Shown here: positions 44,014-58,076 of the stretch, one piece after another
How the letters are laid out: each line of letters opens with the position of its first letter
How positions within the stretch are numbered: the first letter of the stretch is position 1
Program-made: the position numbers and the translations under genes
Notes under the pieces: generated by a model
Databases searched by the model: none
Told to the model about the DNA's origin: nothing
The model's input: only the letters and a program-made list of their open reading frames with translations
Assembly: GCA_038061795.1 (NCBI GenBank)
Contig: JBBTYL010000001.1
Location: 65,801-129,800 of the forward strand
Origin: Patescibacteria group bacterium
GTDB taxonomy: Bacteria; Patescibacteriota; Minisyncoccia; Phycocordibacterales; PALSA-1337
Length of the DNA stretch: 64,000 nucleotides
Direction of reading: 5' to 3'

Positions 44014-44724
44014 CTAGCTAGGCATTCCATGAAGGAGCCATCTTTCGTTTACGATTATTCGGGCAAACTTTCTGACTTCAGCAGCTGTAAGCTGGTAAGT
44101 TTTTGCATATCTTTCCTTGAGTCTATTTTCTGCCATGTCCATGGATGGAGTTAATGGATCCCATGACAAAAAGATACCGTCACTTTTAGTGAATCCCTTG
44201 GCTTTGAGCTGTTGTAGAAACTTCACAAGACCCTTCCTTTTTGACTTTAGGAGTGTTTTTTCGACTAGACCACGACCTGGCTCTCGCTGACTAAAGCTGC
44301 GCTTGATGAAATCACCGACTGTTATCTGTAATTCGCGATTGTAATTGCTACACATATAATCATAGAGATCTCCATACAAACCTGCAACCACTTCACGAAG
44401 TGGGACGTTTTCTATTTTTGCTTTTGAGAGCTTCGACAGTAACTCGTTGTGCCGCACAAGCGCCGGCCAATCATCAGGTGTAAGGCCAAATTGAGCTAGC
44501 TTGGTCTTAATTGCTTTGATTGCTTTCCAACTTAACCCAACATTGGTGTAGAGTGACCCTGAAGCCTCAGTCCTCATACTGACAACAAAGCGATAATGAT
44601 ACGCGGAAACAAGGTCGCCAATTGTGACAAGCTGCTTTTCTTTCGCCCAGCGATTCAATGAGCTCATGTTGAGATGTGACAACGGTAATGCAAAAATTGC
44701 ACGTTCAGACATCTTAGTTTTCAT
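44014..44724 (-). CDS. Hypothetical protein, possible helix-hairpin-helix (RpoA-CTD-like) segment
   Basis: 236 aa. LPLSHLNMSSLNRWAKEKQLVTIGDLVS loosely resembles the alpha-CTD HhH pattern (L-x-L-S-x-R-x-x-N-x-L...I-x-T-I-G-D-L). Otherwise unrecognisable. Confidence 0.5.
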   Translation of the reverse strand: MKTKMSERAIFALPLSHLNMSSLNRWAKEKQLVTIGDLVSAYHYRFVVSMRTEASGSLYTNVGLSWKAIKAIKTKLAQFGLTPDDWPALVRHNELLSKLSKAKIENVPLREVVAGLYGDLYDYMCSNYNRELQITVGDFIKRSFSQREPGRGLVEKTLLKSKRKGLVKFLQQLKAKGFTKSDGIFLSWDPLTPSMDMAENRLKERYAKTYQLTAAEVRKFARIIVNERWLLHGMPS

Positions 44725-44857: not shown

Positions 44858-45463
44858 TCAGGTTGGCGCTTTTTGAAATGGAACATGAATTACCGATTGA
44901 TTTGTGACTCGGAGCTCGTCACATTCATTGAGGTGTGGAAAGAAGGCTTCTTTCGGCTCTGGGAATCCTGCGATTGCCCAAGCGATGAAACAATTCCAGA
45001 CTCCATGGCCGAAGACGAAGACCTCGCCGGACGTAATGTGGTGTCTATTGATTGCAACCTGCATTTCATTCTTTATTCTTTGCCCGTATGCCTTATAGAG
45101 TGCAAGTGCTTCTGGGTCTTGCAGGTATGCTTCCGTATCGAACTGGTAACGGCAAGCGAAGGCCCACATTCTGCCGAAGAATTCCTTGTCACTTGGCCAG
45201 AATTCTCTGAGGGGTACGATGGGAATCGATGCCATTTCAGTTCCATTACAAGCCAGATGCGCAGTAACGATTGCACGAGGGGATTCCGAATGAAGGATAA
45301 TGGCTGGCTTGTAATGGAGTCTTTTTAAACGGAGATTGAGGGAGTATCCTTGCAGGATCCCGTTTCCGCTTACCAGCCGGCGAAAATCATACTCAGGATC
45401 ATCCTGGAGTTCAGGCTTTTTCGGGGCATGTATGTGCCGCCAAAGACTGTAGGTTAGTGACAT
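44858..45463 (-). CDS. Histidine-phosphatase superfamily (PGAM/SixA-like) protein
   Basis: 201 aa. N-terminal RH motif (LWRHIHA), LHSESPRAIVTA (S-x-x-x-R-A-x-x-T-A) and a distal His (VFGHGVW). More G+C-rich than the array genes. Confidence 0.65.
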   Translation of the reverse strand: MSLTYSLWRHIHAPKKPELQDDPEYDFRRLVSGNGILQGYSLNLRLKRLHYKPAIILHSESPRAIVTAHLACNGTEMASIPIVPLREFWPSDKEFFGRMWAFACRYQFDTEAYLQDPEALALYKAYGQRIKNEMQVAINRHHITSGEVFVFGHGVWNCFIAWAIAGFPEPKEAFFPHLNECDELRVTNQSVIHVPFQKAPT

Positions 45464-51467: not shown

Positions 51468-51944
51468 TTACAGATGTGGAGGGCGGTCTGCGGGATGTAC
51501 AGGCGGCGGGAAGTAACGCGCGACGACGCGATACATGGAACCCATAATCGCCATCATGGTTTCCTCATAGTCCTGGGCGAAATGCACAGGCCACGGATTG
51601 CTGATCCGCGCGTTGCAGATCTTGCTGAGGGGAACACCCATGCTCATCACCTCGCCGGCGAGGGTATCGGTCGCACAGACGATGAGATCGTAATTGGCGA
51701 AATCACCTTGTACCGTTACCCGCCGCCGATTGTGGCAGGAAATGTCCAGCCCGATCAGTTTCGCGGCTGCAACACCGAATTCGGCTGCCGGGCCGCCTTT
51801 CGCAGCACTTTCGCCGACGCCGGCGCTTTCGACAATGACTTGGTGCCCTGCATTTTCGAGGAGCATACCGAGGACGGCGGCCATAACTGGTGACCGATCA
51901 CTGTTTCCGATGCAAACGCAAAGGACTTTCTGGATTTTTTTCAT
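51468..51944 (-). CDS. Low-molecular-weight phosphotyrosine phosphatase / ArsC-fold protein
   Basis: 158 aa. N-terminal P-loop VLCVCIGNSDRSP (C-x5-R-S). Strikingly G+C-rich relative to the flanks. Confidence 0.75.
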   Translation of the reverse strand: MKKIQKVLCVCIGNSDRSPVMAAVLGMLLENAGHQVIVESAGVGESAAKGGPAAEFGVAAAKLIGLDISCHNRRRVTVQGDFANYDLIVCATDTLAGEVMSMGVPLSKICNARISNPWPVHFAQDYEETMMAIMGSMYRVVARYFPPPVHPADRPPHL

Positions 51945-52098: not shown

Positions 52099-52719
52099 TC
52101 AATATAAATGTACTTTCGTCGAGACGACGGAATCGTCTTCGAAGACAAACTCAATCGCTTGGCAGTACTCGACATGAGTACGAAGCGTAGTGCCCGTCGC
52201 ACACCATTCTGCGAGTGGGATGAGCGGAATGTGACTAATCGCGGCCGCGTTTTGCTTGTTCGGAAGCTGCGTCGCGATTGTCTTCACTGCTTGAAACGTA
52301 CGAAGGGCTTGGGTTCTTATGAGGTCTGGCATGATTTTGAGGAACCCTGGAGCGTCCAGCAACGGTGGCTTGGCTGGATCAGCCTGCGCCAACCGCCACC
52401 GTTCATATCCCGCCTCCCATTCTCCGATCCTGCTCGGGCCAAGCATGAGGTTATCGCTCATGGGGGCAAGGTCTGGACTTGATTTTGTTGTAAGTTCCCA
52501 AAGGATCTCACATGTCTGCACTGCTCGTGTAAGTGCCGAATGCCAGTAGCGGTGGAAAACGATGCCTTCCTTGGCGAAGTAGTCCGCTGCAACCTGTATT
52601 CTTTGGCTTGAGCCGGGCTTAAGTGGCGCCTTAGGTTGCCAGATGCCCGCACCCGGGCTTTCATCTTTTTCCTGTTCAGCGTGTCGAATGAGGAATACCG
52701 ATCTCTTCATACTTTTCAC
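52099..52719 (-). CDS. Histidine-phosphatase superfamily (PGAM/SixA-like) protein
   Basis: 206 aa. VFLIRHAEQ (RHxE catalytic motif), HSALTRAVQT, and a distal His (AISHIPLI). A TTGACA-N17-TATGAT promoter lies at 52769-52797 on the minus strand. Confidence 0.7.
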   Translation of the reverse strand: MKSMKRSVFLIRHAEQEKDESPGAGIWQPKAPLKPGSSQRIQVAADYFAKEGIVFHRYWHSALTRAVQTCEILWELTTKSSPDLAPMSDNLMLGPSRIGEWEAGYERWRLAQADPAKPPLLDAPGFLKIMPDLIRTQALRTFQAVKTIATQLPNKQNAAAISHIPLIPLAEWCATGTTLRTHVEYCQAIEFVFEDDSVVSTKVHLY

Positions 52720-52850
52720 TTTCGATTTGGTTGTTTGTCGACGTTAATGTTTATGTAAACCAGTGATAATCATATCATTATAAATTAGTTATGTCAATTA
52801 ACCTCAAAACCTAGCCAATTGTAGGCAAAAGAGGCATAATTTGGTCACAC

Positions 52851-53951
52851 ATGATTTACCCAGACTTGAGGCCGCAGAATTATCAGAGGGCTTTTTTCTT
52901 TAAAAAGTTGGGCTATTTGCTTAATGATGGTTTGGTTCTTCCGCACTATAAAAAGAGAGATTTCATCGCGCTTTACTCACATGAGGCACTTGGCACATAT
53001 ATTGGAAATTCTGCAGCTGAGTGGGCTGGTCAAAACGGAAAGGATATATTCTCTAGTGAAAGGAATTTTAAAGAATTCGAAGCAGGTTTCAGAGTAACTA
53101 CCGATGAAGCTGAGAATTATATTTCCAAAGCTCAAAAGCTTACAACTGTTACATTCAACGATTTTGTAGATCTGCAATCTATTGTATGCAAGCTCTACTA
53201 TTATTTTGAAAAAACTGAATTCTTTTTTACCGATGCAAGTTATAAAGGCGAGATGTCTGAGATATTAAAGAAAAACCTACTTGTTCTCGGAGATGATTTA
53301 AAAATGAGAAGTCGACCAATTCTAGTCGAACTTATGACTTCTGTTCTCTATCATTTCGTTAGTTTAAGCTCAGTATGGTTCGGAGTAGACGAAGAAGATT
53401 TAAAGTTCTACAGCTTTGACGAAATACGAGCATTGTTTGAGCTGGAACAAAGAGTTTCTCCTGAGACGATTAAGGATAGGCAAGAATCATTTGTTCTGTA
53501 TTGTGAGGATGGAAAAATAATCTCCATTGAAGGTAAAGATAAGCGAGAAGTTCTTGAGAGATTCGAGGAAGAGGATCATTCCAATAAAAAAGAATTTAAG
53601 GGGACGGTTGCTAACAAGGGTAAGGTTACAGCTCGAGTTAGGGTTGTTTTGCCTGAATTAAACATTCCGTATCAAGAATTCGTTAAAAAACTTTATTCTA
53701 TGGAAATGAATCAGGGAGATATTCTTGTCACAGAAACAACATCACCTGATTTCGTTCCTCTTATGAAAAAAGCCGGAGGGATTATTGCTAATCAAGGAGG
53801 GCTCAATTCTCACGCAGCAATCATGTCCCGTGAGCTCGGTATTCCGTGTCTTGTTGCGACTTATCATGCGACCGATATCCTAAAGACAGGGGATATGATT
53901 GAGCTGGATGCAGAAAAGGGGATTGTCACAATTCTAAAAAATAAGCTATAA
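52851..53951 (+). CDS. Swivel-domain paralog S11 (short class, S9-S11 subfamily)
   Basis: 366 aa. Central FEKTEFFFTDASY motif. C-terminus: GDILVTETTSPDFVPLMKKAGGIIANQGGLNSHAAIMSRELGIPCLVATYHATDILKTGDMIELDAEKGIVTILKNKL. Confidence 0.85.
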   Translation: MIYPDLRPQNYQRAFFFKKLGYLLNDGLVLPHYKKRDFIALYSHEALGTYIGNSAAEWAGQNGKDIFSSERNFKEFEAGFRVTTDEAENYISKAQKLTTVTFNDFVDLQSIVCKLYYYFEKTEFFFTDASYKGEMSEILKKNLLVLGDDLKMRSRPILVELMTSVLYHFVSLSSVWFGVDEEDLKFYSFDEIRALFELEQRVSPETIKDRQESFVLYCEDGKIISIEGKDKREVLERFEEEDHSNKKEFKGTVANKGKVTARVRVVLPELNIPYQEFVKKLYSMEMNQGDILVTETTSPDFVPLMKKAGGIIANQGGLNSHAAIMSRELGIPCLVATYHATDILKTGDMIELDAEKGIVTILKNKL

Positions 53952-53984
53952 TTGTGTCAAAATGAAACAATTAGCATTGCAAAT

Positions 53985-55037
53985 ATGACACAATTAACTA
54001 ACAGACAAAAGAAAATCGTCGACTTCATTGCATCAAGGGATGCAGTTCAGAATCAAGATGTGGTCATCTTCCTGGAGGTGGATACTGATTCTGCATCGAG
54101 AGAGACCGTTGTCAGAGAACTCGCCGTGCTTGTCGATGCAGGAATAATCGAAAAAAGCGGGAAAGGACGCGCAGTGTCGTACAGGATCAGGGGAGTTCAT
54201 CCGCTGCTCAAAGCATTGGACCATGAAGAATATATTTCCAAGGAGCCGGATGTGAGATCTAAAGATGCGATCCTATTCAATCAGGAGATATTCCATAAAT
54301 TAGACGGAATATTCAGCGAAGCTGAGATTTTTGAGCTAAATAGGAAAAATGATGCATATCGGGGACGTGAGAAAAATCTAACTCCAGCCATTCTAAGAAA
54401 AGAGCTTGAGAGGATTACGATAGAATTGTCCTGGAAATCATCAAAGATCGAAGGCAATACGTATTCTTTGATAGACACTGAAATTCTTATCAAAGATAAC
54501 AAGAAAGCGTATGGACATGATGCAGATGAGGCAACGATGATTCTCAATCACAAGAAAGCCATTGATTACATATTTGACAACAGGGAAAAATTCAAGATTC
54601 TTTCCCTGAGGAATGTCGAAGATGTGCACCGAATGCTTGTGGAGGGGCTGGAAGTGAATCATGGCATACGATCAAAAGCCGTAGGCATAACCGGCACTCA
54701 ATATCGTCCGCTTGATAATCAACATCAAGTCAAGGAGGCCCTTGAAAATACAATCATTGAAATAAATAGGATGAAAGATCCCTGGAGCAAAGCCCTCATT
54801 GCTCTTATCATGATCGCCTATATCCAGCCATTTGAGGATGGAAACAAAAGGACCTCGCGCATCGTTGCAAACGCATGTCTGATCGCTCATGATGTTTGTC
54901 CGCTTTCGCTTCGCAGCATTGATGAAACCGAATACAAGAAAGCGATTACTGTATTCTACGAGCTTCAGAATGCGGCCTATATGAAAAAGCTATTCTTGGA
55001 GCAGTTTGATTTTGCAATCAAGAATTACTTTCTTTAA
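53985..55037 (+). CDS. wHTH-Fic/Doc-fold protein with atypical active-site motif (QPFEDGNKRTSR)
   Basis: The ORF is open from TTG 53952, immediately after the S11 stop; the first ATG is at 53985. N-terminal winged-helix pattern (..VVRELAVLVDAGIIEKSGKGRAVSYRI). Inhibitory-helix-like SSKIEGN (S-x-x-x-E-G). Fic core IQPFEDGNKRTSRIVAN, where canonical Fic is HxFx(D/E)GNGRxxR and Doc has NKR. The stop lies 3 nt before the S12 ATG. Confidence 0.75.
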   Translation: MTQLTNRQKKIVDFIASRDAVQNQDVVIFLEVDTDSASRETVVRELAVLVDAGIIEKSGKGRAVSYRIRGVHPLLKALDHEEYISKEPDVRSKDAILFNQEIFHKLDGIFSEAEIFELNRKNDAYRGREKNLTPAILRKELERITIELSWKSSKIEGNTYSLIDTEILIKDNKKAYGHDADEATMILNHKKAIDYIFDNREKFKILSLRNVEDVHRMLVEGLEVNHGIRSKAVGITGTQYRPLDNQHQVKEALENTIIEINRMKDPWSKALIALIMIAYIQPFEDGNKRTSRIVANACLIAHDVCPLSLRSIDETEYKKAITVFYELQNAAYMKKLFLEQFDFAIKNYFL

Positions 55038-55040
55038 GCC

Positions 55041-56450
55041 ATGTCGTATCAACTCGTTAAAGATTTTAAAGAAGTACTTGGTGCACATGAATGCTTCACC
55101 ATACGCGGGGGAATGTCACCCCTTTTGCTCTCATTTCCATGGCAGGGAGAAAATCTTCCCCTTGTGCTTTTTACCATCAGCAAAGGCAGGGACTGCTTCA
55201 TGGCCCTTGATGAGGAGAACTATTTTGAAATTGCCAGATTGAGATTTGAGAAGTACCACAAGGGAGAGCTTTCACTAAAATGGCTTCAAGATGAATATTA
55301 TTCTTTTGCTGCACAGATGCAGGATTTTTATGATAAGTCGATTGCACAAGATTTTTCAAAAGCTTTAGATGAAGAGTTAAGTCAAACACTGAAAGGTTTG
55401 CTCGATCAGTTTCTTGTTTCGCTCCAGAACACTATTTATTTAGAATGTATTGATTATGACAAGATATTGAATGTCATTGGTACAGATAAGAAAGAAGAAC
55501 TAGATGTTATCTGGGAAACTGCTACGCACCCCACATTCATATCTTTTGAAGGACGTCGATTGAAGCTCCTTATCGATCTTGTTTCGAGCAGACAAAATAA
55601 CCTTATCCGTAAGGCGAAGTTCATTTTCACTGATTATGTCTGGACGAAAAGCGATGCAGAAATTGAAACAGCGCTAGCTGATATTCGAAAGAATATGAAA
55701 GAGAAGAGCGGGGAATATGACAATCTTGAAAAAAGCGTTGCTGCCAAAAAAGCAGAATATGATACATGGAAGGTTAGTCTTAATAAGGATATGCAGGAAG
55801 TCGTCGAGTACATGCAGATGGTTATGCTTTTCCGTGATTTAAGAAAGGATGTTATCGCACAGATGCAAGCTGTAATGGTAGAAGTTGCTGTCGAAATGCT
55901 CAAGCGAATTGAGGTTGACGCAAAGCATGCGACAAACATACTTATCTTTGAGTGTGTTAAAGGTATCGAGTATCTTAAAAGTATTAAGGATGAACTTGTA
56001 AGGCGTGAGAGTGGTTTCATTTCTGTTGTGTACACAGATTTCAGTTACAAGATTGAATTATGTGATTTCGACAAAGCTCTCGATGAATTTGAGAAAACAG
56101 TAGTTAAGCATGTTCATACAGATACGATAAAAGGATTTGTTGCGAACAAAGGCAAACTAACAGGAACAGTTCGCGTCGTACTCGATCCACATGGCTACAA
56201 AGGATTTAATAAAGGGGATATTCTAGTGACATCCATGACCCGTCCAGAATTTGTGCCTCTGATGAAGCAGGCTGGAGCAGTTGTGACCAATGAAGGAGGC
56301 ATTACCTGCCATGCCGCCATCGTTTCTCGTGAGCTTGGGATCCCTTGTGTTATCGGTACCAAGATTGCTACAAGGGTGCTAAAGGATGGAGATAGGGTTG
56401 AGGTTGATGCAGACAATGGAGTGGTTACAATATTAAAAAAAAATGAATAG
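55041..56450 (+). CDS. Swivel-domain paralog S12
   Basis: 469 aa. C-terminus: GKLTGTVRVV..GDILVTSMTRPEFVPLMKQAGAVVTNEGGITCHAAIVSRELGIPCVIGTKIATRVLKDGDRVEVDADNGVVTILKKNE. Confidence 0.85.
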   Translation: MSYQLVKDFKEVLGAHECFTIRGGMSPLLLSFPWQGENLPLVLFTISKGRDCFMALDEENYFEIARLRFEKYHKGELSLKWLQDEYYSFAAQMQDFYDKSIAQDFSKALDEELSQTLKGLLDQFLVSLQNTIYLECIDYDKILNVIGTDKKEELDVIWETATHPTFISFEGRRLKLLIDLVSSRQNNLIRKAKFIFTDYVWTKSDAEIETALADIRKNMKEKSGEYDNLEKSVAAKKAEYDTWKVSLNKDMQEVVEYMQMVMLFRDLRKDVIAQMQAVMVEVAVEMLKRIEVDAKHATNILIFECVKGIEYLKSIKDELVRRESGFISVVYTDFSYKIELCDFDKALDEFEKTVVKHVHTDTIKGFVANKGKLTGTVRVVLDPHGYKGFNKGDILVTSMTRPEFVPLMKQAGAVVTNEGGITCHAAIVSRELGIPCVIGTKIATRVLKDGDRVEVDADNGVVTILKKNE

Positions 56451-56451
56451 C

Positions 56452-56485
56452 AAAAAACGCCGGCAATGTTACAGTCGGCGTTGCG
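56452..56485. terminator. Hairpin terminator (strong on minus, weak on plus) at the end of array block C
   Basis: AACGCCG-GCAATGTTACAGT-CGGCGTT. A6 lies upstream, so the minus-strand reading ends in TTTTTTG. Confidence 0.7.
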
Positions 56486-56504
56486 TGAGTAAGGTGATGC
56501 TTTG

Positions 56505-56873
56505 CTACTGTCCCACCACCACTTCCTTTGTGATGTTGGTTGAGTGCCCCTTGGGGAAAAGCCTGCTGATTCCCGTACTGATGTTGTAAAGCGTAATGCC
56601 CTCATCGTCATCAATTGTGGCTACGCCTCGATAACTATTGTGAATGATTGTTCCAGTTTTGCTGGCAATTTTCACCCAACGATTATCCCGCCATTCTGCA
56701 ACCCAATCCAGTTTAATTTTCAGACCAGATGCCGTCAATTCAATCGCTCCAATCTGTGCACGATGCCAATGCTGAACGCCACGCAATTGTTCGTCGTTGA
56801 ATTGTCCACTTGCAAAATCTGGGTTCAGGACAATTTCTTCCCAAGCTATATGTCTTACAGTTGCACTTCTCAT
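56505..56873 (-). CDS. Hypothetical protein
   Basis: 122-aa ORF, more G+C-rich than the flanks, with the terminator above downstream. No motif recognised. Confidence 0.5.
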   Translation of the reverse strand: MRSATVRHIAWEEIVLNPDFASGQFNDEQLRGVQHWHRAQIGAIELTASGLKIKLDWVAEWRDNRWVKIASKTGTIIHNSYRGVATIDDDEGITLYNISTGISRLFPKGHSTNITKEVVVGQ

Positions 56874-57050
56874 AATTTTTAACAGGTTTTGGTTTGAGGT
56901 TCAAGCCACTATGGCTGTGCTCGAGTTGAGCGATAAAGCGAATCACTGTAAATACTATGTACTATTAATACATAGACGTCAATAGTATATAAAGCACTGT
57001 CTTATTTATGGTTTACGTTTTCTCATTTTTATAGTACTATATTGACCATT

Positions 57051-58076
57051 ATGGAACTTGTTCGGAATTTCAAGAAACTGTCAAAAAGTGACGCCCACCT
57101 TGCAGGAGGTAAGGGTGCATCCCTTGGGGAAATGACCCAAGCCGGTATTCCGGTGCCCCCTGGCTTCGTCGTACTTTCCGAGTCTTTTGAGCAATTTCTC
57201 AAAGAAACTGAACTCCATGCCGAAATCGATGCAGTGCTCCATACAGTCGATCATAAGGAGATTCACCTTGTCGAGGCGGCTTCCGAGAAAATTCGTGCCC
57301 TTATCCTTTCGCGTGAGATGCCGAAGGATATCGCGGATGCTATCAACAAGTCATTTAAGGATCTTGATGCAAAGCATGTGGCTGTCCGTTCGTCTGCAAC
57401 AGCCGAAGATGGCATGGACCATGCGTGGGCAGGACAGCTTGAATCATATTTGAATACTACTGAAGATCAGGTGCTTACTAAAGTGAAGCTTTGCTGGTCA
57501 TCCCTTTTTACCCCACGAGCGATCTTTTACCGATTCGAGAAAATGCTACACAGCACGAAGATTTCAGTTGCGGTTGTTGTGCAGAAGATGGTCGAATCAG
57601 AAGTTTCTGGAATCGCTTTTTCAGTGCATCCTGTAACAGAAGACTACAATCAGCTCATTATTGAAGCCGGCTTCGGTCTCGGTGAAGCCATTGTCTCTGG
57701 TTCAGTAACTCCTGATAGCTATGTAGTTGAGAAGAATCCGCGCAATATCCTTGATATAAATGTGTCGACGCAGGAAAGAGGTCTCTATAGGTCTGAAAAG
57801 CACTCTGCAGAGCATGGAAATAACGAATGGATAGATATTCCTGAGCCGAAGGCCTCTTCTCAGGTTCTTACTGGTAAACAGATCCTTGAGCTTTCAGAAA
57901 TCATCCTAGGCATCGAGAAGCACTATGGCTTCCCATGCGATATAGAATGGGCATTCGAGAAAGGGAAGTTCTACATTGTCCAAAGCAGGCCGATTACGAC
58001 GCTTGCTCGAAAGGAGGTAAAGAATGAAGTATCTGGTTTCGCTACTCCCGAATTAAAAGATTTCAAGACGGAATAA
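57051..58076 (+). CDS. Stand-alone PPDK_N / PEP-synthase-type ATP-grasp (nucleotide-binding) domain protein
   Basis: 341 aa from ATG 57051 (TTG 57042 also possible). Motifs: GGKGASLGEM, VAVRSSATAEDG, CWSSLFTPRAIFYR, VAVVVQKMVESEVSGIAFSVHP, GFGLGEAIVSGSVTPD, CDIEWAFEKGKFYIVQSRPITT. The ORF ends at TAA 58074-58076, in the same frame as S13. Confidence 0.85.
   Translation: MELVRNFKKLSKSDAHLAGGKGASLGEMTQAGIPVPPGFVVLSESFEQFLKETELHAEIDAVLHTVDHKEIHLVEAASEKIRALILSREMPKDIADAINKSFKDLDAKHVAVRSSATAEDGMDHAWAGQLESYLNTTEDQVLTKVKLCWSSLFTPRAIFYRFEKMLHSTKISVAVVVQKMVESEVSGIAFSVHPVTEDYNQLIIEAGFGLGEAIVSGSVTPDSYVVEKNPRNILDINVSTQERGLYRSEKHSAEHGNNEWIDIPEPKASSQVLTGKQILELSEIILGIEKHYGFPCDIEWAFEKGKFYIVQSRPITTLARKEVKNEVSGFATPELKDFKTE

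What the first reader, a model, noticed from the sequence alone, without database searches (positions are those of the whole stretch)
53952..55037. wHTH-Fic/Doc-fold gene embedded in an array operon, with Gln replacing the catalytic His and a Doc-like Lys in the motif
Seen:
- The gene sits between S11 (stop 53949-53951) and S12 (ATG 55041) with gaps of 0-33 nt and 3 nt, on the same strand. It is almost certainly co-transcribed with them.
- It has a winged-helix-like N-terminus and an SSKIEGN segment matching the (S/T)xxxE(G/N) inhibitory-helix motif.
- The core reads IQPFEDGNKRTSR. The Gln codon is CAG at 54825-54827, one third-position change from a His codon (CAY).

Established: the canonical Fic motif is HxFx(D/E)GNGRxxR, with the His as catalytic base. 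Doc has K in place of the second G (..NKR) and is a kinase rather than an AMPylase.

Inference: the gene is one of three things. It may be a recently inactivated enzyme, a binding or regulatory pseudo-enzyme (perhaps a transcriptional regulator of the array via its wHTH), or a sequencing error at one base. A Fic/Doc-type modifier inside a phospho-His locus recalls regulation of PPDK and PEPS by phosphorylation next to the catalytic His.
Basis: partly seen in the sequence, partly recalled or inferred. Interest (0 to 1): 0.6.

Follow-up and report, generated by a model that had tools for sequence, protein, structure and literature searches.

The report
Self-regulated Gln-variant Fic gene inside array
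The gene is an ordinary member of a large, already noted but uncharacterised Fic subfamily that always has Gln in place of the catalytic His; it carries its own promoter and operator and appears to have inserted into the swivel-domain gene array rather than belonging to it.

Summary
A Fic-fold gene lies between two swivel-domain genes, with IQPFEDGNKRTSR (Gln codon CAG at 54825-54827) and an SSKIEGN inhibitory motif.

The Gln is neither a sequencing error nor a recent inactivation:
- Four independent assemblies give identical DNA.
- 119 of 120 close homologues carry Q-x-F-x-D-G-N-K-R, as do 112 of 114 motif-bearing distant representatives.
- Both Gln codons are used across homologues.
- Khater and Mohanty (2015) already described this motif class as "clade D2", function unknown.

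New here: nearly every family member has a conserved operator upstream. It is an inverted repeat plus a third half-site 22-23 bp downstream. Half-site bases co-vary with one residue of the N-terminal winged-helix recognition helix. The protein therefore very probably binds and regulates its own promoter. The real start is ATG 53985 (350 aa).

Linkage to the array is not conserved. None of 88 homologue loci has a linked swivel array. Three related arrays lack Fic, and only one close relative shares the arrangement.

Best reading: a solitary, self-regulated Fic module that inserted into the array. Its biochemical activity remains unknown.

The parts
53923..53952 (+). Promoter-like site TTGTCA (53923-53928) - 18 nt - TATAAT (53947-53952). 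The -10 hexamer overlaps the S11 stop codon and the first 3 nt of the operator's left arm.
   Evidence: 11 of 12 matches, the best + strand site in 52600-57100. This is a consensus match only and has not been tested.
53950..53972 (.). Operator inverted repeat: left arm AATTGTGTCA (53950-53959), centre AAA, right arm TGAAACAATT (53963-53972).
   Evidence: The palindrome core occurs only once in the 64 kb window. The same architecture lies upstream of most homologues.
53986..53995 (+). Third half-site TGACACAATT, a direct repeat of the right arm 23 bp downstream. It overlaps the start codon and codons 2-4 (M-T-Q-L).
   Evidence: In other loci the third site lies at +22 bp (+23 in the window's clade).
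53985..55037 (+). Q-variant Fic gene, 350 aa (wHTH plus class-II-like Fic domain); stop TAA at 55035-55037.
   Evidence: (P0001, 100% identical NCBI 'Fic family protein').
53985..54194 (+). N-terminal winged helix-turn-helix (about residues 1-70). The recognition helix begins at S38-R-E-T41.
   Evidence: AF2 DSSP gives H6-16, H23-32, H39-51, E55-58, E65-68. The profile matches ArgR, BlaI and AspA winged helices and the CbFic2 HTH. Residue 40 co-varies with half-site bases.
54438..54458 (+). Inhibitory-helix motif S-S-K-I-E-G-N (residues 152-158 of the 350-aa protein); Glu156 is invariant.
54822..54860 (+). Fic active-site loop I-Q-P-F-E-D-G-N-K-R-T-S-R. Gln281 (CAG 54825-54827) replaces the catalytic His, and Lys288 replaces the second Gly.
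   Evidence: (aligned to FICD HPFIDGNGRTSR).

Best explanation
This is a solitary, self-contained gene of the widespread Q-x-[F/Y]-x-[D/E]-[G/V]-N-K-R Fic subfamily ('clade D2' of Khater and Mohanty 2015). It inserted between two genes of a swivel-domain array in this lineage. It is not a functional component of the array.

How it most likely works:
1. The N-terminal winged helix binds a tripartite operator: an inverted repeat plus a third half-site two helical turns downstream. The operator covers the -10/transcription-start region and the start codon of the gene itself. The protein therefore represses its own synthesis and keeps its level low.
2. The C-terminal domain is a complete class-II-type Fic fold. 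It has an intramolecular inhibitory Glu and an intact phosphate-binding loop (D-G-N-K-R..R).
3. The invariant Gln at the catalytic-His position and the invariant Lys indicate a conserved but non-canonical use of a nucleotide or phosphoryl ligand. This is not ordinary His-base AMPylation.

I take the Fic domain to be an auto-inhibited effector that acts on some cellular target, in the manner of stand-alone Fic toxins and defence proteins.

Shown: family membership, conservation of Gln, the conserved operator, protein-DNA covariation, and the lack of conserved linkage to the array.
Inferred: repression rather than activation, ligand binding, and an effector role. The chemistry and the target are unknown.
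For: Family and conservation:
- QPF.DGNKR occurs in 119 of 120 close homologues.
- Among the 114 motif-bearing 50%-identity cluster representatives of the 150 listed, 112 have Q..[GA]NKR, down to about 32% identity. 288 clusters score E<=1e-30.
- Both Gln codons are used: CAG 53, CAA 40.
- The gene is identical in 4 independent assemblies.
- Invariant residues include E156, Q281, D285, G286, N287, K288, R289 and R292.

Fold:
- AF2 model with pLDDT 90.7.
- Best solved matches are FICD/HYPE, Fic-1, BT_2513 and SoFic.

Operator:
- 44 of 84 distinct upstream regions have a 9-nt-arm inverted repeat plus a third copy at +22 bp. Shuffles give 0.3 on average, 3 at most.
- 62 of 84 pass a looser score.
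- Residue x of the S[RKL]xT recognition-helix motif tracks the half-site: I/V with TGATAC (37 of 39), M with TGTTAC (6 of 6), F/T with TGCTAC (4 of 4), E with TGAC[AG]C or TGAAAC (4 of 4). Mutual information was reached by 0 of 10000 permutations.
- Of 120 exact metagenome occurrences of one operator class, 81 sit directly upstream of an intact Q-Fic and 3 beside a decayed one; 17 are not assessable.
- Promoter-like site at 53923-53952.

Not an array part:
- None of 88 homologue loci has a linked swivel array; the only two swivel-HMM hits are weak and lie 4-6 kb from the Fic gene.
- 144 immediate neighbours fall into 159 Pfam families, and the commonest (AbiEii) occurs only 4 times.
- Arrays with S12 orthologues at 52-57% identity have no Fic.
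- In L099 a 394-aa swivel paralogue occupies the slot between the S11 and S12 orthologues.

Literature: the motif class was described in PMC4454073.
Against: - No biochemical evidence exists for any member. With Gln in place of the general base, the domain could be non-catalytic.
- The gene is packed tightly against its neighbours (33 nt and 3 nt). A related organism (S12 88% identical) keeps the Fic-S12 junction, so the arrangement has been stable for some time and S12 must be transcribed through Fic.
- The GC content of the gene (0.418) does not differ from the array, so there is no compositional sign of recent transfer.
- About 18% of assessable copies of one operator class are not beside a Q-Fic gene. 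Several of these are N-terminal remnants of the gene. A wider regulon cannot be excluded from 64 kb.
- The covariation statistic ignores phylogeny.
- The association with toxin-antitoxin and defence genes is modest, and viral contigs rarely carry the gene.
Confidence: 0.55

Rival explanations
1. Non-catalytic, ligand-sensing transcription factor (a pseudo-enzyme). The Fic domain only binds a nucleotide or a modified protein and tunes DNA binding by the wHTH. There may be a regulon beyond its own gene.
For: - The general-base His is replaced by Gln in the whole family.
- The wHTH and its operator are clearly functional.
- 19 of 103 assessable operator copies have no Q-Fic within 2.5 kb.
- There is precedent for DNA binding coupled to Fic domains in CbFic2 (PMC10628234).
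- PDB 3EQX (SoFic) was deposited as a 'FIC domain containing transcriptional regulator'.
Against: - A regulator whose main detectable target is itself has no obvious purpose.
- The perfect operator occurs once in the window.
- Several orphan operators are visibly remnants of deleted Q-Fic genes.
- Gln, Lys, both Arg, Asp, Asn and the inhibitory Glu are invariant. This is more than a decayed active site would keep, though a ligand-binding site would keep much of it too.
Confidence: 0.25
2. The gene is a functional component of the swivel-domain array. It either modifies the phospho-His carrier proteins, as the PPDK/PEPS regulatory proteins do, or regulates the array promoters.
For: - Same strand, with gaps of 33 and 3 nt, and no terminator called at either gene junction.
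- The Fic-S12 junction is conserved in a relative with 88% identical S12.
- Phosphatase genes are also embedded in the array.
Against: - None of 88 homologue loci has a linked swivel array; the only two swivel-HMM hits are weak and 4-6 kb away. No PEP-utilizers family appears among the 25 most frequent families listed for 144 immediate neighbours.
- Three related arrays (L097/L098, L099, L220) lack Fic.
- Operator half-sites do not cluster anywhere else in the array.
- The closest Fic homologues (78-79% identical) sit beside dnaK/dnaJ instead.
Confidence: 0.07
3. Sequencing error at one base, or a very recent His-to-Gln inactivating mutation in an ordinary Fic gene.
For: CAG is one third-position change from CAY.
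Against: - Identical DNA in four independent assemblies from different samples.
- Gln is present in essentially all relatives, with both CAG and CAA codons.
- The accompanying Gly-to-Lys change is also family-wide.
Confidence: 0.01

Closest known systems
'Clade D2' Fic/Doc proteins with motif Qx[F|Y]x[D|E][G|V]NKR (Khater and Mohanty, Sci Rep 2015, PMC4454073)
   Same: The motif is exactly the same, including the G/V alternative that I saw independently in Sulfitobacter and Cereibacter plasmid genes. The clade is restricted to bacteria, and the authors inferred selection to retain it.
   Different: - That study had 45 sequences, called them usually single-domain, and grouped them with Doc.
- Here the family is far larger: at least 593 species and 288 clusters at E<=1e-30.
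- It has an N-terminal wHTH and an inhibitory helix.
- By sequence profile and by fold it is nearer to FICD-type class II Fic than to Doc.
- The operator and the autoregulation were not described there.
FICD/HYPE and C. elegans Fic-1 (class II AMPylase/deAMPylase of Hsp70 BiP)
   Same: - Best sequence matches (E=6e-15 with the profile) and best fold matches (Foldseek probability 1.0, TM about 0.6).
- An N-terminal inhibitory helix with (S/T)xxxE(G/N).
- Asp, Asn and both Arg of the loop are retained.
   Different: - Catalytic His replaced by Gln, and the second Gly by Lys.
- A wHTH in place of the TPR domain.
- 16-20% identity.
- Both FICD activities are described as needing the His (established knowledge; PMC8373988 was listed but not read in detail).
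SoFic (Shewanella SO_4266; single-gene anti-phage defence) and the PADLOC candidate PDC-S04
   Same: - A stand-alone class II Fic with cis-inhibition.
- PADLOC SoFic model E=1.8e-22, PDC-S04 E=1.4e-16.
- Both combine a Fic domain with a winged helix.
   Different: - The match covers only profile positions 43-218 of 361.
- In SoFic the wHTH is C-terminal.
- SoFic has the canonical His and GNGR and AMPylates its targets.
- A defence role for the Q clade is untested.
Doc toxin of Phd/Doc (kinase of EF-Tu)
   Same: Lys at the second-Gly position (..NKR).
   Different: - Doc keeps the catalytic His and lacks the last Arg.
- Doc is a minimal fold of about 125 aa completed by Phd, and it has a Phd antitoxin gene upstream.
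- None of these holds here, and no Doc chain matched the family profile at E<=1.
CbFic2 of Coxiella burnetii (Fic enzyme regulated by DNA binding through an HTH; PMC10628234)
   Same: A Fic domain fused to an HTH. The family's wHTH matches the CbFic2 HTH (8cil residues 302-371, E=0.0014).
   Different: CbFic2 has a canonical motif, a C-terminal HTH and non-specific DNA binding, and it targets host histone H3.

Membership tests
Fic/Fido superfamily (Pfam PF02661) | Match to the family HMM above the curated threshold | tested here: met
   50.4 bits against a cut-off of 24, E=4.2e-13, residues 217-310 of the 361-aa ORF.
Fic/Fido superfamily (Pfam PF02661) | Fic fold (helical core with the active-site loop between two helices, plus a beta-hairpin flap) | tested here: met
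   AF2 model with pLDDT 90.7. Foldseek to FICD, BT_2513, Fic-1 and SoFic gives probability 1.0, E down to 7e-9.
Canonical AMPylating Fic enzymes (HxFx(D/E)GNGRxxR) | Catalytic His at the first motif position | tested here: not met
   Gln281 (CAG 54825-54827) aligns with FICD His363. Gln is family-wide.
Canonical AMPylating Fic enzymes (HxFx(D/E)GNGRxxR) | Second Gly of GNGR (anion hole) | tested here: not met
   Lys288, invariant in the family.
Canonical AMPylating Fic enzymes (HxFx(D/E)GNGRxxR) | Asp/Glu, Asn and both Arg of the loop | tested here: met
   D285, N287, R289 and R292 are invariant.
Class II Fic proteins (intramolecular N-terminal inhibitory helix) | (S/T)xxxE(G/N) motif N-terminal to the Fic core in the same chain | tested here: met
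   S152-S-K-I-E156-G-N; S152, E156, G157 and N158 are invariant. It aligns with FICD TVAIEGN.
Doc toxins (Phd/Doc) | H-x-F-x-[D/N]-[A/G]-N-K-R with catalytic His and no final Arg | tested here: not met
   The Lys is present, but His is Gln and the final Arg (R292) is retained. Motif definitions are from PMC4454073.
Doc toxins (Phd/Doc) | Minimal fold of about 125 aa and an upstream Phd-type antitoxin gene | tested here: not met
   - The protein is 350 aa with a full core and flap.
- There is no conserved neighbour among 144 flanking genes.
- No Doc chain matched at E<=1 in the PDB profile search.
Clade D2 of Khater and Mohanty 2015 | Motif Qx[F|Y]x[D|E][G|V]NKR | tested here: met
   QPFEDGNKR in the window gene. 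112 of 114 motif-bearing representatives fit, and the V variant was seen in plasmid genes.
SoFic anti-phage defence system | Full-length match to the SoFic model, including the C-terminal domain | tested here: not met
   The PADLOC hit (E=1.8e-22) covers only profile positions 43-218 of 361. NCBIfam SoFic scores 20.9 bits against a cut-off of 550.
SoFic anti-phage defence system | Protection against phage | not testable with these tools
   Needs phage challenge of a host expressing the gene.
Autoregulated wHTH repressor | Cognate operator at its own promoter, with specificity matching the recognition helix | tested here: met
   Conserved inverted repeat plus third half-site. Residue-to-base covariation. 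The operator is dedicated to Q-Fic genes in 81 of 103 assessable metagenome sites. Binding itself was not measured.
Component of the swivel-domain (PEP-utilizers) array | Linkage conserved in orthologues and in related arrays | tested here: not met
   None of 88 homologue loci has a linked swivel array. Arrays L097/L098, L099 and L220 lack Fic. Only the close relative L096 shares the junction.

The most novel reading that the evidence does not exclude
The Q-x-F-x-D-G-N-K-R clade is a very widespread, one-gene, self-repressed module. It is found in at least 593 species, mainly Patescibacteria, but also in gut Alphaproteobacteria, Gastranaerophilales, Akkermansia and plasmids of cultured bacteria. 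On this reading its Fic domain carries out a chemistry not yet described for Fic proteins. The invariant Gln, together with the Doc-like Lys and the inhibitory Glu, would position a water or a substrate rather than act as a general base. The domain would then be, for example, a hydrolase, a de-modifying enzyme or a phosphotransferase. The diversified operator and recognition-helix pairs would insulate co-resident copies from one another, as in toxin-antitoxin or defence systems.
Probability: 0.25. Interest if true: 0.6.

Novelty: new member of a known kind. Interest (0 to 1): 0.3.

Why it matters
For the window, the result removes a tempting but unsupported story. The Fic gene is not a regulator or modifier of the phospho-His array, so the array should be interpreted without it.

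More generally, the result shows three things about the Gln-variant Fic clade noted in 2015:
- The clade is large.
- It is under strong purifying selection at the altered active site.
- It is equipped with a predictable, co-evolving operator.

This gives simple, testable handles: operator binding, specificity swaps at one residue, and E156G or Q281H variants. Cultured hosts and plasmids carry members (Bacteroides finegoldii, Cereibacter, Sulfitobacter). Together these could settle whether a Fic domain without the catalytic His is an enzyme or a sensor.

Tried and rejected
- Literature search for the exact motif strings found nothing. Searches for experimental work on a Gln-variant Fic found only the 2015 in-silico paper.
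- NCBIfam has no specific model, only weak SoFic and ArsR-HTH hits.
- PHROGs gave only unknown-function families.
- A conserved partner gene (antitoxin or target) was sought by clustering 1356 ORFs from 88 loci and by Pfam-scanning 144 immediate neighbours. None was found.
- A swivel-domain HMM built from the window's 16 paralogues found no linked array in the homologue loci.
- A composition test for recent transfer was negative: Fic GC is 0.418, within the array range of 0.34-0.46.
- Phage carriage is rare: 10 viral contigs, and 5 phage records with partial matches of 28-32% identity covering 53-59% of the query.
- Extra operator copies at the array promoters were sought and not found.
- The dnaK/dnaJ adjacency of the nearest homologues was considered as a clue to an Hsp70 target, by analogy with FICD. 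It is too rare to support that: DnaJ is beside 3 of 144 neighbours.
Full report
**Observation**

The ORF 53952..55037 (+) exists as described. The S11 stop is TAA at 53949-53951 and the S12 ATG is at 55041. The loop reads IQPFEDGNKRTSR with CAG at 54825-54827, and SSKIEGN lies at 54438-54458. Pfam Fic/DOC (PF02661) matches at E=4e-13, above its curated threshold. The flanking genes carry the PEP-utilizers mobile (swivel) domain. The closest solved sequences are FICD/HYPE. In that alignment Gln sits on the catalytic His and Lys on the second Gly of HPFIDGNGRTSR.

**The Gln is not an error or a recent lesion**

- The exact protein is on record from several assemblies of different groundwater samples, and the gene DNA is identical in all four that were fetched.
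- Of the 120 best homologues (52-100% identity), 119 have QPF[E/A]DGNKR.
- An exhaustive search of 1.84 billion cluster representatives gave 288 clusters at E<=1e-30. Of the 150 best, 114 reach the motif and 112 of these read Q..[GA]NKR, down to about 32% identity.
- Across 93 homologous genes the codon is CAG 53 times and CAA 40 times. This shows selection for the amino acid itself.
- Alignment of 47 members shows that E156 of the inhibitory motif, Q281, D285, G286, N287, K288, R289 and R292 are all invariant.
Most are Patescibacteria, but the family also occurs in Alphaproteobacteria, Gastranaerophilales, Akkermansia and others.
- Plasmids of cultured bacteria carry it too. The Sulfitobacter and Cereibacter genes read LQAFADVNKR and LQPFEDVNKR.

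**Already in the literature**

Khater and Mohanty (Sci Rep 2015, PMC4454073) sorted Fic/Doc sequences by motif and described a clade 'D2' of 45 bacterial sequences. Its consensus is Qx[F|Y]x[D|E][G|V]NKR, and they noted the His-to-Gln replacement. They argued from its retention that the proteins may not be dead. That is this family, including the G/V alternative. I found no experimental follow-up in the searchable library. HTH-Fic fusions in general, and K at the G/K position, were noted by Kinch et al. 2009 (PMC2686095).

**Architecture**

An AlphaFold model built on 47 sequences (pLDDT 90.7) has an N-terminal three-helix, two-strand winged helix at residues 6-68. A linker follows, and then a complete Fic core with the inhibitory helix and the flap.

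- Foldseek places the model with FICD, Fic-1, BT_2513, SoFic and CbFic2.
- A family profile finds FICD at E=6e-15 and finds no Doc chain at E<=1.
- Profile positions 3-70 match the ArgR, BlaI and AspA winged helices and the HTH of CbFic2.

So the protein is Doc-like only in its Lys. In fold and in its inhibitory helix it is a class II Fic. It also keeps the last Arg, which Doc lacks.

**A conserved operator (new here)**

Some homologues had spurious N-terminal extensions that 'translated' similarly to one another. This pointed to conserved DNA upstream of the ATG. Listing the upstream regions showed an inverted repeat in nearly every locus, for example AATTGTATCA-aaa-TGATACAATT or AATCGTATCA-nnn-TGATACGATT. 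A third copy of the right arm follows it.

- Of 84 distinct upstream regions, 44 have a 9-nt-arm inverted repeat (at most 1 mismatch) plus a third copy (at most 1 mismatch). Shuffles give 0.3 on average and 3 at most. The third copy lies 22 bp after the right arm in almost all loci, and 23 bp in the window's clade.
- A looser score finds 62 of 84.
- In the window the left arm is 53950-53959 and the right arm is 53963-53972. The third site is 53986-53995, so ATGACACAATTA is both a half-site and codons M-T-Q-L.
- The TTG at 53952 is therefore part of the operator. The start is ATG 53985.
- The best promoter-like site of the region, TTGTCA-18-TATAAT at 53923-53952, abuts the left arm and overlaps the S11 stop.
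- In other loci a TTGAC-like box often precedes the left arm at a spacing that puts TAC[A/G]AT of the right arm at -10. Only 21 of 126 oriented sites have a good -35, so this is suggestive only.

**Protein-DNA covariation**

The half-site differs between loci but agrees among the three copies within a locus. It tracks one residue at the start of the recognition helix, in the motif S[R/K/L]-x-T (window S38-R-E-T).

| Half-site | Residue x | Loci |
|---|---|---|
| TGATAC | I or V | 37 of 39 |
| TGTTAC | M | 6 of 6 |
| TGCTAC | F or T | 4 of 4 |
| TGAGAC | P | 1 of 1 |
| TGAC[A/G]C or TGAAAC | E | 4 of 4 |

TGTTAC with M occurs in three different sequence contexts: SKMT/TKMT with CGAT, and SRMT and TRMT with CAAT or CATT. 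No permutation out of 10000 reached the observed mutual information. Phylogeny is not controlled. Recurrence of the same pairings in different backgrounds argues that the cis-encoded wHTH reads this operator.

**The operator is dedicated to the gene**

The perfect palindrome occurs once in the 64 kb. The three half-sites at 53949-53996 are the only cluster.

- 81 lie directly upstream of an intact Q-Fic gene.
- 3 lie beside decayed copies.
- 17 are at contig ends and cannot be assessed.
- 19 have none within 2.5 kb.
- Several of those 19 still encode the first codons of a Q-Fic gene (MIKLSQKQQ..., MNKLTQKQQK...). They are remnants of deleted copies.

**Relation to the array**

None of 88 homologue loci (up to 10 kb each side) has a linked swivel array. 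The only two HMM hits are weak, on 738-aa proteins 4-6 kb away. The 144 immediate neighbours fall into 159 Pfam families. The commonest is AbiEii with 4, followed by DnaJ, AAA_14/DUF4143, NYN and SNase with 3 each.

Conversely, S12 has orthologues in many Patescibacteria. In arrays with S12 at 52-57% identity (L097/L098, L099, L220) it is preceded directly by another swivel gene and there is no Fic. L099 has the same local order as the window: His_Phos_1 on the minus strand, an S11 orthologue at 66% identity, and then the S12 orthologue. A 394-aa swivel paralogue occupies the place where the window has Fic. Only L096, whose S12 is 88% identical, also has a Q-Fic C-terminus directly upstream of S12.

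The nearest Fic homologues (78-79% identical) lie beside dnaK/dnaJ in other genomes. The simplest account is a lineage-specific insertion of a self-contained gene, with its promoter and operator, into the array. The composition of the gene does not differ from the array, so the event is not very recent or the donor was similar.

**Mechanism**

Shown by comparison: the wHTH recognises a tripartite operator at its own gene.

Inferred from the operator's position over the -10/start region and over the start codon: it represses its own synthesis.

The Fic domain keeps everything needed to hold a phosphate-bearing ligand and to be auto-inhibited by Glu156. Gln281 is invariant rather than drifting, which argues for a specific role and not mere loss of function. 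Whether that role is catalysis of some non-canonical reaction or only ligand sensing cannot be decided here. I favour an auto-inhibited effector (0.55) over a pure sensor or regulator (0.25), for two reasons. A regulator that mainly regulates itself has no evident purpose. Solitary cis-inhibited Fic proteins such as SoFic act as toxins or defence proteins (PMC12249575; PADLOC hits). An array-linked function is unlikely (0.07), and an error or recent inactivation is excluded.

**Verdict**

Interest is modest and rests on the conserved operator and on the open question of what a His-less Fic domain does.

Noticed in passing
window 36768-63424 (and beyond the window end): The array itself has at least 16 paralogous genes, each a variable N-terminal domain plus a C-terminal PEP-utilizers swivel (phospho-His) domain. 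There is a single stand-alone PPDK_N ATP-grasp gene at 57042-58076. Best partial matches are to the C-terminal halves of PEP synthase-like, rifamycin phosphotransferase and PigC/RedH enzymes. Fused 800-aa PPDK_N+swivel versions and similar arrays occur in other Patescibacteria (L097, L099, L220). It looks like a split phosphotransferase with one shared ATP-grasp subunit and many substrate modules.
   Followed up: partly
window 51468-51944 (-) and 52099-52719 (-); L099 6094-7609 (-): A low-molecular-weight phosphatase (LMWPc) gene and a histidine-phosphatase-superfamily (His_Phos_1) gene lie on the opposite strand inside the array, in a stretch of higher GC (0.47). In L099 two His_Phos_1 genes occupy the same position just upstream of the S11 orthologue. 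The phosphatase may therefore be a conserved array component.
   Followed up: partly
L005 1-4984; L006 1387-3360; L007 4044-9910; L032: The closest homologues of the window's Fic gene (57-79% identical) lie within or beside the dnaK/dnaJ operon, 5-12 nt upstream of dnaJ in two loci. This is notable because the best structural match, FICD, modifies an Hsp70. However, DnaJ flanks only 3 of 144 neighbours overall.
   Followed up: partly
L123 2441; L202 2481; L210 5260 / L215 3055: Orphan operators are followed by only the first few codons of a Q-Fic gene (MIKLSQKQQ..., MNKLTQKQQK...) and then by unrelated ORFs. This indicates repeated deletion or decay of the gene.
   Followed up: partly
L113 1892; L119 773; L193 1595: Some perfect operator palindromes without a Q-Fic gene lie next to other genes. 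By recall, not tested, their N-termini resemble RhuM-type or Bro-N/DinD-type proteins. In L007 a RhuM-Fic fusion sits directly upstream of the Q-Fic gene.
   Followed up: no
L055 363-1421 and 8170-9228; L063 8920-11044; L033 8589-11065: Some genomes carry two Fic-family copies in one locus. In L055 two copies are each followed, 3 nt downstream, by the same 325-aa protein of unknown family.
   Followed up: no
window 56505-56873 (-), 44014-44724 (-), 44858-45463 (-): Minus-strand ORFs interrupt the array and have no hit in Pfam, PADLOC or PHROGs.
   Followed up: no
window 53921-53932: ATTGTCACAATT inside the S11 C-terminal coding sequence resembles an operator half-site and contains the putative -35 box. 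It may be chance, because all S paralogues end with similar G-I-V-x-I-L codons.
   Followed up: no
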